DNA of 63,635 bases from IMG/VR virus record IMGVR_UViG_3300017734_000002, positions 1 to 63,635 of that record, one strand, 5' to 3'. Below the pieces are notes generated by a model. It saw nothing but the letters and a program-made list of their open reading frames with translations, was not told the origin of the DNA and searched no databases. Below, one piece after another: positions 32,084 through 62,814 of this stretch (positions within the stretch are counted from its first letter, which is position 1; each line of letters starts with the position of its first letter). Made by a program: the position numbers and the translations under genes. This DNA comes from a virus (Duplodnaviria; Caudoviricetes).

Positions 32084-32312
32084 GGCTGTTGAAGAGCTAA
32101 TTAAAGTAGCTAAAGAAGCTATTGTTGATTCAGATGATGATATATCAGCTGATAGACTTAAAAATGCTGCTGCTACTAAAAAACTAGCTATATTTGATGC
32201 TTTTGAAATATTAAACAGAATACAGGAAGAAGAGGATATGTTGAATGAAAAACCTAAAAAAGTAGAAGAAAAGAAGGCTTTTGGTGGTTTTGCAGAAAGA
32301 AGATCTAAATAA
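32037..32312 (+). CDS. Probable terminase small subunit
   Basis: Helical 91-aa ORF immediately upstream of terL. Confidence 0.55.
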   Translation: MNIKETKKNIIQAGHKAVEELIKVAKEAIVDSDDDISADRLKNAAATKKLAIFDAFEILNRIQEEEDMLNEKPKKVEEKKAFGGFAERRSK

Positions 32313-34528
32313 TGTACCAGCAATCGCTTTATGAGGTTGTAGAACCTATAAAAATAAATACCGTAAAAAGACTTAATAAGTCTAAAAGCTGGAAATATGG
32401 TTATAACAAAGAGCATGATGTTGTAGTTATAAGCAGAACGGGTCAGATTGGTGAGGTGTATAGCATACAAAACTTGCACATAGCTTTACCCAAAAAACCT
32501 ACAAATGTTTTTAAGTTTGATAAAAATACTTGGGAAAAATCTGAATACCCAAAAGAGTTAGGTAAAATAAAAACAGTTTTTGACTGGAAAGAATATCCAG
32601 AAGACTTTAAAGAAAAATGGTATGATTACATCGATAATGAGTTTACCCGAAGGGAGGAAGGTTTTTGGTTTTATAACAAAAGCGTTCCTACTTACGTTAC
32701 TGGTACTCATTACATGTACTTGCAGTGGAGTAAAATCGACGTTGGAGCACCGGACTTTCGCGAGTCAAATAGATTATTCTATATTTTCTGGGAGGCTTGT
32801 AAGGCCGATTACAGATCCTATGGGATGTGCTATCTTAAGAATAGGCGATCTGGATTCTCATTTATGGCATCAGGCGAGGTGGTTAACATGGCAACCATAT
32901 CCTCTGACTCTAGATATGGAATATTATCTAAGAGTGGACCAGATGCGAAGAAGATGTTTACTGACAAGGTGGTACCAATATCCATTAATTACCCCTTCTT
33001 TTTCAAACCCATCCAGGACGGAATGGATCGTCCAAAGACCGAGCTTGCCTTCAGGGTCCCAGCCAGTAAGCTTACCAGAAGAAAACTTACCAGTAACGAA
33101 GCCTTACAGGAACTCGAGGGTCTCGACACCACGATCGACTGGAAGAATACGGGTGACAACTCCTACGACGGTGAGAAGCTTAAACTCCTCGTCCACGACG
33201 AGAGCGGTAAATGGGAGAGGCCGAACAACATCCTCAACAACTGGCGTGTTACGAAAACCACCCTACGACTAGGTAGTAGAGTAATTGGAAAGTGTATGAT
33301 GGGTTCAACATCAAATGCTTTAGATAAAGGTGGTGATAATTTTAAAAAATTATATAAAAACTCAGATGTTACAAAAAGAAACCGCAATGGACAGACAAGC
33401 TCAGGATTATATAGTTTGTTCATACCTATGGAATGGAACTACGAAGGATTCATTGATTCTTATGGCTTACCTGTATTCGATACACCCGAGCAAGAAACTT
33501 TTGGTCCCTATGGGGAAAATATAGATATAGGAATACTAGAGCATTGGCAAAACGAAGCTGATGGTTTAAAAAATGATGGAGATGCTTTAAATGAATTTTA
33601 TAGACAATTTCCACGTACTGAAGAACATGCTTTCAGAGATGAAACTAAAAATAGTATATTTAATTTAGCAAAAATATACGAGCAAATAGATTACAACGAA
33701 GAAACTAGATATGAAAATACTATAACAACAGGTAATTTCCAATGGTTAAATGGTGTAAAAGATAGTAAAGTTATATTTTATCCAGATAAAAACGGTAGAT
33801 TTAAACTAAGCTGGACACCACCTTCTCATCTACAAAATAATGTTGTAATGAAAAACGGTTTAAAAAGACCAGGTAATATCCACATGGGTTGTTTTGGTTG
33901 CGATAGTTATGATATATCAGGAACAGTTGACGGTAAAGGATCTAAAGGTGCATTGCATGGTTTAACAAAGTTTAGTATGGAGGATTCACCCGCTAATCAT
34001 TTCTTTTTAGAGTATATAGCTAGGCCTCAGACCGCTGAGATATTCTTTGAGGACGTTCTAATGGCACTTGTGTTTTACGGGATGCCTATACTAGCAGAGA
34101 ATAATAAACCCCGTCTATTGTATTATTTAAGAAGGCGTGGTTATAGAGGATATTCGATGAATAGGCCTGATAAGGTCTGGAATAAATTGTCAACCGCAGA
34201 AAAAGAAGTTGGTGGTATACCAAATTCAAGTGAAGACATAAAGCAAGCGCATGCCTCTGCTATTGAAATGTACATACAGGATCACGTTGGTATTACGCCA
34301 GATGGTTCTTTTGGAACAGTCTACTTTAATGAATTATTAAGTGACTGGGCTAAATTTGATATAAATAATAGAACTAAGTTTGATGCTTCTATTAGTTCTG
34401 GTTTAGCTATAATGGGTTGCAATAGGCATTTATATGCACCCAATGCTAAAGTAGAAAAACAAAAAATAAATATAAGTTTTGCTAGATACAAACAAAGCGG
34501 AACGCATTCAAAATTAATAGAAAATTAA
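32312..34528 (+). CDS. terL: Terminase large subunit
   Basis: KNRRSGFS Walker A variant, LLVHDESGKW Walker B, GST coupling motif, nuclease GCD and final D. Confidence 0.9.
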   Translation: MYQQSLYEVVEPIKINTVKRLNKSKSWKYGYNKEHDVVVISRTGQIGEVYSIQNLHIALPKKPTNVFKFDKNTWEKSEYPKELGKIKTVFDWKEYPEDFKEKWYDYIDNEFTRREEGFWFYNKSVPTYVTGTHYMYLQWSKIDVGAPDFRESNRLFYIFWEACKADYRSYGMCYLKNRRSGFSFMASGEVVNMATISSDSRYGILSKSGPDAKKMFTDKVVPISINYPFFFKPIQDGMDRPKTELAFRVPASKLTRRKLTSNEALQELEGLDTTIDWKNTGDNSYDGEKLKLLVHDESGKWERPNNILNNWRVTKTTLRLGSRVIGKCMMGSTSNALDKGGDNFKKLYKNSDVTKRNRNGQTSSGLYSLFIPMEWNYEGFIDSYGLPVFDTPEQETFGPYGENIDIGILEHWQNEADGLKNDGDALNEFYRQFPRTEEHAFRDETKNSIFNLAKIYEQIDYNEETRYENTITTGNFQWLNGVKDSKVIFYPDKNGRFKLSWTPPSHLQNNVVMKNGLKRPGNIHMGCFGCDSYDISGTVDGKGSKGALHGLTKFSMEDSPANHFFLEYIARPQTAEIFFEDVLMALVFYGMPILAENNKPRLLYYLRRRGYRGYSMNRPDKVWNKLSTAEKEVGGIPNSSEDIKQAHASAIEMYIQDHVGITPDGSFGTVYFNELLSDWAKFDINNRTKFDASISSGLAIMGCNRHLYAPNAKVEKQKINISFARYKQSGTHSKLIEN
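32637..33272 (+). CDS. Overprinted putative lipoprotein in the +1 frame of terL
   Basis: Stop-free for 230 codons; signal-like MSLPEGRKVFGFITKAFLLTLLVLITC; local shift of terL wobble positions to C/G. Confidence 0.55.
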   Translation: MSLPEGRKVFGFITKAFLLTLLVLITCTCSGVKSTLEHRTFASQIDYSIFSGRLVRPITDPMGCAILRIGDLDSHLWHQARWLTWQPYPLTLDMEYYLRVDQMRRRCLLTRWYQYPLITPSFSNPSRTEWIVQRPSLPSGSQPVSLPEENLPVTKPYRNSRVSTPRSTGRIRVTTPTTVRSLNSSSTTRAVNGRGRTTSSTTGVLRKPPYD

Positions 34529-60734: not shown

Positions 60735-61022
60735 ATGAGCGCACCACAAATAGGAGAGAGTACGAAGGTAACTCTAGATTTAAAAACAATAGGTATAATA
60801 GTAGGAGGAGTAATATCTTTAGCTAGTATGTATTTTGTAATGCAAGCAGACATAGCGCTCGCTATGACTTTACCAGAACCAACAATATCTAAGACAGAAT
60901 GGGAGTTAAAAGATGAGCTGATTCGTAATACAATTATGGACACACAAGACGACGTAGAAATGATATTAGAAAAACTAGATAAGCTAGATGAAAGAATATA
61001 CGAAATACAAAAAAATAACTAA
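60735..61022 (+). CDS. Single-pass membrane protein with coiled-coil
   Basis: IGIIVGGVISLASMYFVM transmembrane segment. Confidence 0.6.
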   Translation: MSAPQIGESTKVTLDLKTIGIIVGGVISLASMYFVMQADIALAMTLPEPTISKTEWELKDELIRNTIMDTQDDVEMILEKLDKLDERIYEIQKNN

Positions 61023-61432
61023 TGAGATACTTAATTTTAATTTTAATACCATTTTTATCAATTAGTCAAGTAGATGTTCCAGAAGAATATTGGATTGATG
61101 ACTCTAACTTCGAACAAGCTATAAGTAATAAATCTGCTTTTGGCGATGAAGAAGTTAAGCCAGTTCTTGTAGAGTTTTGGGCAGAGTTTAATGAAGAGAA
61201 TTGTTTTGCAGAGTGGGAACAAATAAAAGACGCGACTTACTATAGAGTTGATATATCTAAAGCTCCTTTAGCTAAAAAGAAATATAGAGTTAGGATGGCA
61301 CCTACTTTAATAATATTCAAAGACGGAATAAAAGAAACAGTGTTTAAAGCAGGTTTAGATCTATTGTTACCTACTAATCTAGCTGAAATACAAGAAACAA
61401 TAAACGAAATTAACAACGCAAATAAATTTTAA
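61022..61432 (+). CDS. Exported thioredoxin-fold protein lacking CxxC
   Basis: Signal peptide; PVLVEFWAEFN, YRVD, KYRVRMAPTLIIFKDG. Confidence 0.65.
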   Translation: MRYLILILIPFLSISQVDVPEEYWIDDSNFEQAISNKSAFGDEEVKPVLVEFWAEFNEENCFAEWEQIKDATYYRVDISKAPLAKKKYRVRMAPTLIIFKDGIKETVFKAGLDLLLPTNLAEIQETINEINNANKF

Positions 61433-61433
61433 T

Positions 61434-61667
61434 ATGTGGAAATTAACTAAACAATACTGGAAAGATATGTGGAAAGCTCTATGGAGTAAAACTACTATTG
61501 ATGAAAAAGCAATTGCTACAGTACAAGAAATTAAAAAAAGATATAAACTTACAGCTGCGGAACTAGCTGACGTAGCAGACGCTATTAAAGAAGTTGGTAA
61601 TCAAATTGGAGACATAGATGATGCTGTAAAAGGCAAGGCTAGAAAAGGTAGAAAAATAAAAAAATAA
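61434..61667 (+). CDS. Hypothetical protein
   Basis: 77 aa, amphipathic W-rich start. Confidence 0.6.
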   Translation: MWKLTKQYWKDMWKALWSKTTIDEKAIATVQEIKKRYKLTAAELADVADAIKEVGNQIGDIDDAVKGKARKGRKIKK

Positions 61668-62021
61668 ATGAAAAAAATTATAGCTTTATTACTTATACCG
61701 TATTTTTCAATGGCTCAACTAGATATATACGGTTGGGAAGTTCAAGAAGATAAAGCTATGCATTATTTGGCTGGTGTTGCTATAACTAGTATATCTCACG
61801 ATTTAATTTTTGAGCATACTAAAAGTAAAGAAAAAGCTATAATGTATTCTATCGCTACTACTTTAGCTGTGGCAACTTTTAAAGAAGTTTTTATAGATAG
61901 AGGGCATGGTGATGGTCAAGATATAGCGGCTAGTATGTATGGCGCAATAACTGTAGGCGTCGCGATAGAGCTTGATGGTTTATTTAGAAAAAAAAGAAAT
62001 AAAATAAAATGGAAAAAATAA
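61668..62021 (+). CDS. Membrane protein, YfiM/DUF2279-like
   Basis: DKAMH..G, KE..D, DIAA..G pattern. Confidence 0.55.
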   Translation: MKKIIALLLIPYFSMAQLDIYGWEVQEDKAMHYLAGVAITSISHDLIFEHTKSKEKAIMYSIATTLAVATFKEVFIDRGHGDGQDIAASMYGAITVGVAIELDGLFRKKRNKIKWKK

Positions 62022-62470
62022 GCAAACACGTAAGTTACCGTGAAGGTGTGTATAGCAGAACAGCGGAGAGACTTGGTTTGAAAAATGATCCTACTGATGA
62101 GCATTTAGCCAACATGAAGCTTATCGCAGAAAAAGTGTTTGAGCCTCTTAGAATAAACGTAGGTGGTCCTATAAAGATTAATTCTTTTTACCGTGGACCA
62201 GAATTAAATAAAGCTGTTGGTGGATCTTCAAAATCACAACATTGTCATGGTCAAGCAATTGATATTGATGATACTTTTGGTCATGCTACTAACGCTGAAA
62301 TGTATAAGTGGATTAAAAAAAACTTAAACTTTGATCAGATGATATGGGAATTTGGTACGGATAAAAACCCTAATTGGGTACATATAAGCTACGTAAGTGA
62401 AGATAAAAACAGAAACAGATGTTTAAAAGCATATAAAGAAAATAACAAAACTAAATACATGATAATATGA
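62009..62470 (+). CDS. Endolysin, peptidase M15 family
   Basis: INSFYR..LNKAVGGS..SQH..GQAIDI and WVHISY zinc ligands. Confidence 0.88.
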   Translation: MEKISKHVSYREGVYSRTAERLGLKNDPTDEHLANMKLIAEKVFEPLRINVGGPIKINSFYRGPELNKAVGGSSKSQHCHGQAIDIDDTFGHATNAEMYKWIKKNLNFDQMIWEFGTDKNPNWVHISYVSEDKNRNRCLKAYKENNKTKYMII

Positions 62471-62814
62471 GAACAAAAGGATGTGGCCCAAGAAATTTAG
62501 GAGCGCCAAAAGGATCACCATTTAAATTAGATCCTGTAACTATTATGAAAGTAGCTAGCATGGCAAAAGGGGCTAAAAAAGATAAAGATAGCGGTGGCGA
62601 AAAAGAAACTACTACTACTACCACTAAACCAGTAAACCCTAAAAATCTAGATGTAAAAGATCCTTTTGAAGGTGTGCCCTACAGAGGTACACCCTTAAAG
62701 TTTAAAGGTGCTAATTCTTCTAATTCATCTTGTTGGAAAGGATATAAAAAAGTAGGTACAAAACCTTCACCTACTAATCCAGGTGTAACTGTAAACGATT
62801 GCAAAAAACAATAA
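62467..62814 (+). CDS. Basic hypothetical protein
   Basis: SPFK/TPLK motifs and CWKGYKKVG..VNDC tail. Confidence 0.65.
   Translation: MRTKGCGPRNLGAPKGSPFKLDPVTIMKVASMAKGAKKDKDSGGEKETTTTTTKPVNPKNLDVKDPFEGVPYRGTPLKFKGANSSNSSCWKGYKKVGTKPSPTNPGVTVNDCKKQ

What the first reader, a model, noticed from the sequence alone, without database searches (positions are those of the whole stretch)
32580..33272. Probable lipoprotein gene overprinted on the terminase ATPase domain
The +1 frame is open for 230 codons, although this genome's favourite codons (TTA, ATA, GTA, CTA before A/G) create frequent +1 stops. In this interval terL switches visibly to C/G-ending codons (e.g. ctcgagggtctcgacaccacgatcgac) and reverts after the TAG at 33272. 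From ATG 32637 the product has a basic-hydrophobic-Cys signal (RKVFGFITKAFLLTLLVLITC), an aromatic-rich middle and an R/S/T/P-rich tail, like Bacteroidota lipoproteins. No spanin is obvious elsewhere, so it may be a lysis or superinfection-exclusion factor hidden in an essential gene.
Basis: partly seen in the sequence, partly recalled or inferred. Interest (0 to 1): 0.75.

Follow-up and report, generated by a model that had tools for sequence, protein, structure and literature searches.

The report
New gene hidden inside phage terminase
A marine flavobacterial phage and many uncultured relatives keep a second, 216-codon reading frame open inside their DNA-packaging (terminase) gene, which most likely encodes a new membrane-anchored, largely unstructured protein of unknown role rather than a classical lipoprotein.

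Summary
The +1 frame of terL is open over 32580-33272. terL third-position GC rises from about 0.2 to 0.5-0.77 there and falls to 0.1-0.17 at the TAG.

It is not chance. Synonymous shuffles that keep the patch's own codon mix expect about 6 stops; 0 of 5000 reached zero.

In 54 non-redundant carriers, Leu/Ile/Val codons ending in A are 0 of 991 before a purine, where they would make a stop, and 423 of 808 before a pyrimidine.

All 54 have an ATG before the hydrophobic segment, against 23 of 47 non-carriers. terL-silent sites are held at that segment plus CTCSG, and at a C-terminal RTTSSTTG motif. The roughly 140 codons between evolve freely but stay Pro/Ser/Thr/Arg-rich.

The likely CDS is 32622-33272. 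AlphaFold gives one N-terminal helix and disorder.

No family matches it, and I found no free-standing homologue.

The residue before Cys is T, I or L in 54 of 54, so the classical lipobox fails.

Verdict: probably a real overprinted accessory gene. Its function and its translation are unproven.

The parts
32312..34528 (+). terL (terminase large subunit), the ancestral host gene
   Evidence: 738-aa ORF. Matches phrog_6681 at E 9.8e-173. No Pfam or PDB sequence hit.
32580..33272 (+).
   Evidence: In several carriers a +1 stop lies 6 codons upstream of ATG 32622, so the 5' part of this frame is probably not coding.
32590..32621 (+). A-rich leader directly upstream of the likely start
   Evidence: GC3 is 0.10 in carriers for codons 96-101, against 0.21 in non-carriers. 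Silent-site diversity ratio is 0.64 here. No unusual RNA fold (z 0.02). A role in initiation is inferred.
32622..33272 (+). ORF1, the likely CDS (216 aa) of the overprinted gene
   Evidence: ATG at 32622 in 47 of 54 carriers, against 14 of 47 non-carriers. Most database calls of this protein are 211-218 aa long.
32637..32639 (+).
   Evidence: ATG in 36 of 54 carriers, against 3 of 47 non-carriers. Seven carriers of the first set open only here.
32661..32729 (+). Hydrophobic segment (VFGFITKAFLLTLLVLIT) followed by the invariant CTCSG
   Evidence: terL third base is T in 14 of 14 carriers at six codons where non-carriers use T at 17-40%. Silent diversity ratio is 0.35-0.54, against a baseline of 0.89. 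Best 19-residue hydropathy is 2.26 (minimum 1.67) in 54 carriers, against 1.01 in non-carrier pseudo-translations. AlphaFold gives helix 9-35; mean pLDDT of the 10-residue blocks covering residues 11-30 is 63 and 74.
32730..33134 (+). Variable Pro/Ser/Thr/Arg-rich, basic, predicted-disordered middle
   Evidence: Silent diversity is about equal to the non-carrier level. Against the non-carrier pseudo-translation: Pro x6.8, Ser x2.8, Arg x2.6, Thr x1.9; net charge +16.5. pLDDT 33-44. In-frame proline-run indels occur near 33090-33110.
33135..33245 (+). Conserved C-terminal Ser/Thr-rich block ending in RTTSSTTG (33222-33245)
   Evidence: Invariant or nearly invariant S172, G174, T179, T180, G198, T203-T207 and G208. 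ATC, CTC and AAC are fixed with C in 14 of 14 carriers, against 3-40% in non-carriers. Silent diversity ratio is 0.35-0.60 at 33212-33245. The block overlaps terL LLVHDE (Walker-B-like, a recalled label) and PNNILNNW.
33270..33272 (+). TAG stop of ORF1, where GC3 collapses
   Evidence: Carrier GC3 falls from 0.44 to 0.07 at codons 312-323. Some carriers stop two codons earlier.
33324..33524 (+). ORF2, a candidate second ORF in the same +1 frame (ATG at 33366 or 33387; 45-53 aa). Weaker evidence; link to ORF1 unknown
   Evidence: Open for at least 58 codons in 98 of 99 sequences scored. Val352 ends in A or G in 3 of 101, and Ile380 ends in A in 0 of 100. 41 of 51 carriers have no stop where the mean chance of none is 0.06; the four same-length control intervals, tested in carriers and non-carriers alike, show observed close to expected. 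Silent diversity ratio 0.48-0.57. RNA fold z 0.31.

Best explanation
ORF1 (32622-33272) is a real protein-coding gene born by overprinting in the +1 frame of terL. It arose within one clade of uncultured marine podophages related to phages of Flavobacteriia.

How it most likely works. It is translated by internal initiation at a conserved ATG on the late terL message (inferred). The product has three parts:
- a short positively charged N-terminus;
- one hydrophobic helix ending in an invariant Cys-Thr-Cys-Ser-Gly;
- about 180 basic, Pro/Ser/Thr/Arg-rich, disordered residues closed by a conserved Ser/Thr block (RTTSSTTG).

Selection acts on four things: keeping the frame open, the helix, the C-terminal block, and the hydrophilic composition of the middle. 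That composition demands C or G at terL third positions, which is why the GC3 patch exists.

The protein is most likely inserted into, or exported across, the host inner membrane late in infection. It behaves as a dispensable accessory envelope factor. The role (lysis timing or envelope disruption, or blocking a second infection) is inferred only. It is not a classical lipoprotein.
For: Shown by calls:
1. Openness beyond composition. 0 of 5000 composition-preserving shuffles reached zero stops in the window, L006, L058, L040 and L019. It was 1 of 5000 in L001 and L002. Four non-carrier controls show observed close to expected.
2. Stop-specific codon avoidance. NTA codons for Leu/Ile/Val are 0 of 991 before a purine and 423 of 808 before a pyrimidine in 54 carriers. 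Downstream in the same genes the figures are 1102 of 1638 and 620 of 905.
3. The trait is bimodal. Among 161 terL sequences, 94 have 0-1 stops in the core and 39 have 10 or more.
4. Start codon. 54 of 54 carriers have an ATG between the last upstream stop and the helix, against 23 of 47 non-carriers.
5. Carrier-specific fixed silent sites cluster at the helix plus CTCSG and at the C-terminal block.
6. Hydrophobicity is concentrated in one N-terminal segment and removed elsewhere. The best 19-residue score in the rest of the protein is 0.61 in carriers, against 1.58 in non-carrier pseudo-translations.
7. Persistence. Carriers differ at 0.507 of four-fold sites inside the patch. Database relatives fall to about 44-47% identity and keep a length near 214 aa.
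8. The GC3 borders coincide with the end of the helix and with the stop.
9. No free-standing homologue. The 148 library representatives were not context-checked as a set. Among all 216 proteins held from both searches, 45 are frame-switch chimeras with collinear terL, and every match 240 aa or longer that could be checked lies within terL.

From the literature: a restricted distribution and disorder-promoting composition are the usual marks of de novo overprinted proteins (PMC8227390, passages read).
Against: - There is no direct evidence of translation. The only RNA evidence is short contigs from marine RNA libraries, which may hold DNA and say nothing about frame.
- About 140 central codons show no constraint on sequence. 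Four-fold divergence is 0.507 inside against 0.501 outside.
- The AlphaFold model is poor (mean pLDDT 41.6). The ESM Atlas recognition score is low and it gave no usable hit.
- There are no Pfam or PHROG matches.
- The carrier group was defined by lacking stops, so the zero counts are by construction. The weight rests on the contrast with safe contexts and on the shuffles.
- Sequences are related, and I ran no formal phylogenetic codon model.
- The gene was lost or replaced about 11 times on the tree, so any benefit is conditional.
- Parts of the conserved +1 peptide are forced by conserved terL motifs.
Confidence: 0.72

Rival explanations
1. ORF1 is a classical lipoprotein, cleaved by signal peptidase II and lipidated on Cys. 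It acts as a spanin-like lysis factor or a superinfection-exclusion lipoprotein.
For: There is a positively charged N-terminus, an 11-18 residue hydrophobic stretch, then Cys. Both Cys residues are invariant in the 48-sequence alignment. The second Cys depends on a silent TTG choice fixed in 14 of 14 carriers. My scans recognised no canonical spanin in the lysis region at 60.7-62.8 kb. Recalled: lambda Rz1 is a proline-rich lipoprotein nested in the +1 frame of Rz.
Against: The residue before the first Cys is T (39), I (13) or L (2) of 54, and before the second Cys always T. The classical lipobox needs Gly, Ala or Ser there (recalled rule; a typical Bacteroidetes example is Leu-Ser-Ala-Cys, PMC5837995). 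ORF1 is not in or beside the lysis cassette. It has no C-terminal membrane segment and no recognisable partner. It has been lost repeatedly.
Confidence: 0.12
2. The frame is not translated. It is a by-product of a GC3-rich patch caused by something else: recombination with a GC-richer relative, biased gene conversion, or selection on the mRNA or DNA.
For: High GC3 by itself lowers +1 stops. The central 140 codons show no sequence constraint. terL is mosaic in this group: some non-carriers inside the carrier clade are slightly closer to the outgroup in the ORF1 segment (L008, L068, L046). There is no expression evidence.
Against: Shuffles that keep the patch's composition still expect 5-9 stops. 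NTA codons are used at 52% in safe contexts and 0% in stop-making contexts. The other frame is not depleted of stops. The ATG is conserved. The T-rich run that makes a hydrophobic helix runs against the GC trend. terL protein divergence from non-carriers is lower in the patch than outside, and silent divergence among carriers is as deep as in the flanks. The phage collection holds no GC-rich donor; the best DNA hit is 66% identical. RNA folds are unremarkable.
Confidence: 0.1
3. The frame is read by programmed ribosomal frameshifting out of terL. This would give a TerL N-terminal fragment fused to the membrane helix and tail, rather than an independently started protein.
For: The +1 frame is open for 14-28 codons upstream of the helix in most carriers. 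A run of five A lies at 32612-32617.
Against: Many carriers have +1 stops 6 codons before ATG 32622 or just before ATG 32637. In every one of the 54 an ATG follows the last stop. I saw no conserved slippery site.
Confidence: 0.04

Closest known systems
Lambda Rz1 nested in Rz (o-spanin in i-spanin); recalled, not fetched
   Same: A same-strand +1 ORF wholly inside a late gene of a tailed dsDNA phage. It encodes an exported, proline-rich envelope protein with Cys at the end of its signal.
   Different: Rz1 is about 60 aa, has a canonical lipobox and sits inside its own functional partner in the lysis cassette. ORF1 is 216 aa, fails the lipobox, sits in terL about 28 kb from the endolysin and has no known partner.
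PhiX174 E nested in D; de novo status per PMC8227390, functional details recalled
   Same: A +1 ORF overprinted on an essential morphogenesis gene. It has a constrained N-terminal membrane helix followed by a basic tail that tolerates sequence change. This is the same selection pattern seen here.
   Different: E is 91 aa, in a 5.4-kb ssDNA phage that has no endolysin, and is the sole lysis gene. This 63.6-kb phage has an M15 endolysin, and ORF1 is dispensable in relatives.
De novo overprinted proteins of viruses in general (review PMC8227390; single-genome permutation tests, PMC6188560, seen in search listing only)
   Same: Narrow phylogenetic distribution, disorder-promoting composition, asymmetric evolution of the two frames, and detection through ORF length and silent-site constraint.
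   Different: Nearly all documented cases are in small RNA or ssDNA viruses under 30 kb. Here the host is a 63.6-kb tailed phage and the host gene is terL. Three literature searches listed no case of a gene nested in terL.
Phage superinfection-exclusion lipoproteins (T5 Llp, phi80 Cor); recalled
   Same: Small accessory phage envelope proteins that are often gained and lost.
   Different: Those are free-standing genes with canonical lipoboxes and folded domains. No sequence similarity was found.

Membership tests
Overlapping (overprinted) protein-coding gene | The alternative-frame ORF is significantly longer than synonymous or codon permutation allows | tested here: met
   0 of 5000 shuffles reached zero stops, against a mean of 6.07.
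Overlapping (overprinted) protein-coding gene | The ORF and its start codon are conserved across diverged homologues | tested here: met
   94 of 161 sequences are open. An ATG is present in 54 of 54 carriers. Four-fold divergence among carriers is 0.507.
Overlapping (overprinted) protein-coding gene | Reduced silent-site variability in the host gene over the overlap | tested here: inconclusive
   Met locally: the ratio is 0.35-0.60 at the helix and the C-terminal block, against a baseline of 0.89. Not met over the central ~140 codons.
Overlapping (overprinted) protein-coding gene | Evidence of translation (ribosome profiling or peptides) | not testable with these tools
   Only RNA-library contigs were available. 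They carry no frame or strand information.
Bacterial lipoprotein (signal peptidase II substrate) | Lipobox with Gly, Ala or Ser immediately before the Cys | tested here: not met
   The residue before the first Cys is T 39, I 13, L 2 of 54. Before the second Cys it is always T. The rule itself is recalled.
Bacterial lipoprotein (signal peptidase II substrate) | Positively charged N-region followed by a hydrophobic region | tested here: met
   An Arg/Lys-Lys pair precedes the segment. Hydropathy is 2.26 over 19 residues.
Bacterial lipoprotein (signal peptidase II substrate) | Lipidation and globomycin-sensitive cleavage | not testable with these tools
   This needs an experiment.
Spanin (o-spanin or unimolecular spanin) | Encoded in, or nested within, the lysis cassette beside an i-spanin; a unimolecular spanin has a C-terminal membrane segment | tested here: not met
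   ORF1 lies in terL, while the endolysin is at 62009-62470. The best 19-residue hydropathy after the helix is at most 1.11.
Single-gene lysis protein of the phiX174 E type | An N-terminal membrane helix is the constrained part and the tail is basic | tested here: met
Single-gene lysis protein of the phiX174 E type | It is the sole lysis gene of a phage without an endolysin | tested here: not met
   An M15 endolysin is present (Peptidase_M15_3 E 9.1e-14; phrog_894 E 1.4e-29).
Sec signal peptide cleaved by signal peptidase I in Bacteroidetes | Small residues at -3 and -1, and commonly Gln at +1 (the Q-rule) | tested here: inconclusive
   C-S-G would satisfy -3 and -1. The next residue is V, A, L or P in 52 of 54 and Q in 1 of 54. 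The Q-rule holds for more than 60% of substrates, not all (PMC5837995).

The most novel reading that the evidence does not exclude
terL of this phage group carries a de novo gene caught at many stages of birth, maintenance and loss across hundreds of natural genomes. Its product, a constrained membrane helix with a basic tail whose sequence is free, acts like the single-gene lysis proteins of tiny phages: it targets a step of envelope synthesis or integrity. In a tailed phage it would serve as a lysis accelerator or an exclusion factor. A second short ORF (33324-33524) in the same frame would be a further nested gene, making terL a three-product locus.
Probability: 0.15. Interest if true: 0.88.

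Novelty: new variant of a known kind. Interest (0 to 1): 0.72.

Why it matters
- Long genes nested in a second frame are textbook features of tiny RNA and ssDNA viruses. In tailed dsDNA phages they are assumed rare, and standard gene callers suppress them.
- Here a 650-base gene sits inside the most conserved phage gene, terL, which is the usual marker for phage phylogeny. It distorts terL's codon usage and slightly raises its protein divergence. Within carriers, terL amino-acid difference in the patch is 0.135, against 0.109 in non-carriers.
- More than 500 natural variants exist in one viral collection. They include intact, truncated and decayed forms. This gives an unusually rich natural series for studying how a gene is born by overprinting, what is selected first, and how it is lost. 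The first things selected appear to be an open frame, one membrane helix and hydrophilic composition.
- It also adds an unannotated membrane protein to abundant marine flavobacterial phages.
- It warns that local GC3 anomalies in phage core genes can mark hidden genes.

Tried and rejected
**Searches for a known family or fold**
- Pfam and PHROGs gave nothing for ORF1.
- The ESM Atlas gave no usable hit; recognition score 1788.
- AlphaFold with a 48-row alignment gave mean pLDDT 41.6, so I ran no fold search.
- A PDB sequence search with TerL found nothing. The placement of the ATPase domain therefore rests on the PHROG name and a recalled Walker-B-like motif.

**Whole-patch silent-site test**
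- It showed no reduction, and for a time I read this as evidence against coding.
- Per-column and sliding analyses then showed that the constraint is local.

**A first context count** used the wrong stop context (third-base T before AA, AG or GA). I discarded it; searches use the right one.

**RNA structure** as the cause of constraint was rejected for the start region and the ORF2 region (z 0.02 and 0.31). I ran no alignment-based covariation test.

**A GC-rich donor** was sought in the phage collection and none was found. The best DNA match is 66% identical.

**More distant relatives lack ORF1**
- MW202828 (62% TerL identity) has many +1 stops and no patch.
- Flavobacterium phage elemoF (45%) has no alternative-frame ORF of 60 aa or more in terL.

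**RNA libraries**
- 17 runs hold at most 0.20 of the sampled words.
- Laying four of them gave short contigs over parts of terL, some identical to the window (32798-33058 and 33128-33334). They cannot show transcription, strand, ends or frame.

**Loss or replacement?** Whether non-carriers inside the clade lost ORF1 by decay or by recombination was not resolved.

**Earlier notes of this scan** near the locus concern other features and did not bear on this one.

**Papers.** Supplements were not opened. The literature searches were read as listings, except for passages of PMC5837995 and PMC8227390.
Full report
**Setting**

The window is a 63,635-base virus record estimated 98% complete. Its nearest cultured relatives are podophages of Flavobacterium, Cellulophaga, Tenacibaculum and Maribacter. 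These share at most 45% TerL identity. One uncultured freshwater-spring genome reaches 62%.

terL is 32312-34528 and matches phrog_6681 at E 9.8e-173. The portal gene follows it. terL has no Pfam hit and no PDB sequence hit.

**The observation**

The frame made of terL codon positions 2, 3 and the next codon's position 1 is open from 32580 to the TAG at 33270-33272.

terL GC3 in 30-codon windows is 0.13-0.40 upstream and 0.37-0.77 inside. It is 0.17 and then 0.10 immediately after. GC at positions 1+2 is flat, and the genome GC is 0.34.

The interval has only its terminal stop in 231 +1 codons. The rest of terL has 43 in 505.

**Chance**

Stops in this frame arise only from NTA codons before a purine or NTG codons before A.

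I shuffled synonymous codons among positions with the same amino acid inside the interval. This keeps the interval's GC-rich codon mix. The mean was 6.07 stops, and 0 of 5000 shuffles had none. The other frame has 23 stops against 20.7 expected.

Relatives without the patch show observed close to expected:
- L012: 11 against 10.6
- L049: 15 against 14.9
- L007: 16 against 17.9
- L004: 11 against 13.7

**Relatives**

The 80 best TerL relatives in IMG/VR have 75-88% identity. Together with the window that makes 81 sequences. They split into two groups.
- 14 of 81 have a +1 frame of 210-258 codons over the interval, with GC3 of 0.39-0.52 there.
- Most others have 7-20 stops and no patch.

Searching with the ORF1 protein found 543 of 547 candidate stretches encoding a relative. 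The best 80 are all full length at 60-100% identity.

Over all 161 sequences the number of stops in the core is bimodal: 94 have 0-1 stops and 39 have 10 or more. After removing near-duplicates (95% nucleotide identity or more) there are 54 carriers and 47 non-carriers.

**Stop avoidance is context-specific**

| Leu/Ile/Val codons ending in A | before a purine | before a pyrimidine |
|---|---|---|
| 54 carriers, ORF1 region | 0 of 991 | 423 of 808 (52%) |
| Same genes, downstream | 1102 of 1638 | 620 of 905 |
| Non-carriers, same region | 487 of 872 | 420 of 603 |

NTG before A occurs 0 of 248 times in the carriers' ORF1 region.

The zeros follow from how carriers were chosen. However, the safe-context rate implies about 9-10 stops per sequence if nothing opposed them.

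**Start codon**

All 54 carriers have an ATG between the last upstream +1 stop and the hydrophobic segment, against 23 of 47 non-carriers.
- ATG 32622 is present in 47 of 54 carriers (14 of 47 non-carriers).
- ATG 32637 is present in 36 of 54 carriers (3 of 47 non-carriers).

Several carriers have a stop six codons before 32622. I therefore take 32622-33272, 216 aa, as the CDS. This matches the 211-218 aa of most database calls.

**What is constrained**

Averaged over the patch, four-fold sites differ as much inside as outside among carriers: 0.507 against 0.501, over 91 pairs. The protein as a whole is therefore not held in sequence.

Per-column analysis shows carrier-specific fixed silent sites in clusters.
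- At 32672-32725 the terL third base is T in 14 of 14 carriers at six codons. That gives Leu or Ile in ORF1. Non-carriers use T there at 17-40%.
- TAC, TTG and CAG are fixed in 14, 14 and 13 of 14 carriers, giving Thr-Cys-Ser.
- At 33143-33238 third-position choices are fixed in at least 13 of 14 carriers at nine codons. They are C at six of these (AAC, CTC, ATC), G at two (AAG, GAG) and A at one (AAA). Several of the C choices fall in the Ser/Thr block that ends in RTTSSTTG.

With 54 carriers and 47 non-carriers, the silent-site diversity ratio has a baseline of about 0.89. It dips:
- to 0.35-0.54 at 32654-32720;
- to 0.35-0.60 at 33212-33245;
- to 0.48-0.57 at 33374-33460, which lies beyond ORF1.

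**The product**

- Carriers have one hydrophobic segment. The best 19-residue Kyte-Doolittle score averages 2.26, minimum 1.67. No other segment scores above 1.11.
- Non-carrier pseudo-translations show the reverse pattern: 1.01 at the N-terminus and 1.58 elsewhere.
- After the helix, composition shifts against the non-carrier pseudo-translation: Pro x6.8, Trp x3.1, Ser x2.8, Arg x2.6, Thr x1.9, with Lys, Ile, Leu and Val down.
- Net charge is +16.5 and pI is 10.8.
- The terL third base is C 0.31 and G 0.23, against 0.11 and 0.13 in non-carriers. This composition is what produces the GC3 patch.
- AlphaFold2 with 48 sequences gives mean pLDDT 41.6. Only helix 9-35 is supported, with block means of 63 and 74 for residues 11-30.
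- Invariant residues in 48 sequences are L29, C32, T33, C34, S35, G36, G57, C69, C112, W135, G174, G198 and G208. Some of these are forced by conserved terL motifs such as THYMYLQW.

**Lipoprotein?**

The residue before the first Cys is T in 39, I in 13 and L in 2 of 54 carriers. Before the second Cys it is always T.

The classical rule (recalled) needs Gly, Ala or Ser there. A Bacteroidetes paper calls Leu-Ser-Ala-Cys typical (PMC5837995, passages). Membership is therefore not met.

A type I cleavage after Cys-Ser-Gly is possible. The following residue is Gln in only 1 of 54, whereas that paper reports Gln after the cleavage site in more than 60% of Bacteroidetes type I substrates. An uncleaved membrane anchor is equally possible.

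**Origin and dynamics**

- On a tree of the C-terminal part of terL, 153 of 161 sequences had coverage. Carriers (86) form one large clade, with about 11 changes of state by parsimony.
- Non-carriers inside that clade have patch GC3 of 0.16-0.40, and truncated forms exist.
- Whether these are decays or replacements by recombination is unresolved.
- A profile search of 1.84 billion representatives found 148 proteins, all 374 aa or shorter. Of the 216 proteins held from both searches, 164 match ORF1 only and 45 are chimeras that switch between the ORF1 frame and collinear TerL.
- The 62% and 45% relatives lack ORF1.
- This distribution, the disorder and the composition fit de novo birth by overprinting as reviewed in PMC8227390 (passages).

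**Against recombination from a GC-richer phage**

- Carrier-to-non-carrier TerL amino-acid difference is 0.163 in the patch and 0.245 outside.
- Silent divergence among carriers is not lower in the patch.
- The phage collection holds no close GC-rich DNA.

**Function**

Function is unknown. The phage has a separate lysis region:
- a membrane protein at 60735-61022;
- a thioredoxin-like protein with a signal peptide at 61022-61432;
- a membrane protein at 61668-62021 that matches a PHROG labelled 'lipoprotein', though it has no Cys;
- an M15 endolysin at 62009-62470.

No canonical spanin was recognised there.

ORF1's pattern of selection is a constrained N-terminal helix with a basic tail that tolerates change. 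That resembles phiX174 E (recalled). Its nesting and proline richness resemble Rz1 (recalled). Its repeated loss marks it as an accessory gene.

I commit to a late-expressed, membrane-anchored or exported disordered envelope protein. A lysis-modulating role or a role in excluding a second infection remain as inferences.

**Expression**

Short contigs in marine RNA libraries cover parts of terL, some without any difference from the window. They cannot show transcription, strand or frame.

**Prior art**

Three full-text searches listed no gene nested in a terminase large subunit. I read these as listings only.

**Verdict**

The overprinted-gene reading is well supported by comparative evidence. 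The lipoprotein label fails its defining test. Function and translation remain to be shown.

Noticed in passing
window 33324-33524 (+), same frame as ORF1: A second short +1 ORF (64 aa from GTG 33330; ATG at 33366 and 33387). It is open for at least 58 codons in 98 of 99 relatives scored. Stop-making codons are avoided at Val352 (3 of 101) and Ile380 (0 of 100). It has the strongest silent-site constraint in terL (ratio 0.48-0.57). Carriers and non-carriers have different but internally conserved versions. It is absent in the 62% relative.
   Followed up: partly
window 33080-33125 and the aligned columns in L058, L092, L097, L103, L111, L149: terL has an in-frame indel hot spot in a linker. 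In the ORF1 frame it reads as proline runs of variable length (up to eight Pro).
   Followed up: no
window 60735-62814: Lysis region: a 95-aa membrane protein, a thioredoxin-fold protein with a signal peptide (PF00085, E 5.5e-7), a 117-aa membrane protein matching a PHROG labelled lipoprotein but lacking Cys, and an M15 endolysin. No canonical spanin pair was recognised.
   Followed up: partly
L008, L068, L046 against the carriers (terL segments): terL looks mosaic. These non-carriers group with carriers in the N- and C-terminal parts but are as close or closer to the outgroup in the ORF1 segment. This hints at recombination inside terL.
   Followed up: partly
database proteins P0036, P0043, P0068, P0074, P0090, P0092, P0098, P0109, P0143, P0150: Public gene calls that switch between the TerL frame and the ORF1 frame at collinear positions. 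They are probably assembly frameshifts or frameshift-tolerant callers. They show how this locus confuses annotation.
   Followed up: partly
window 32312-34528: This TerL family has no Pfam-A match and no sequence match to any solved structure, although its PHROG match is strong.
   Followed up: no
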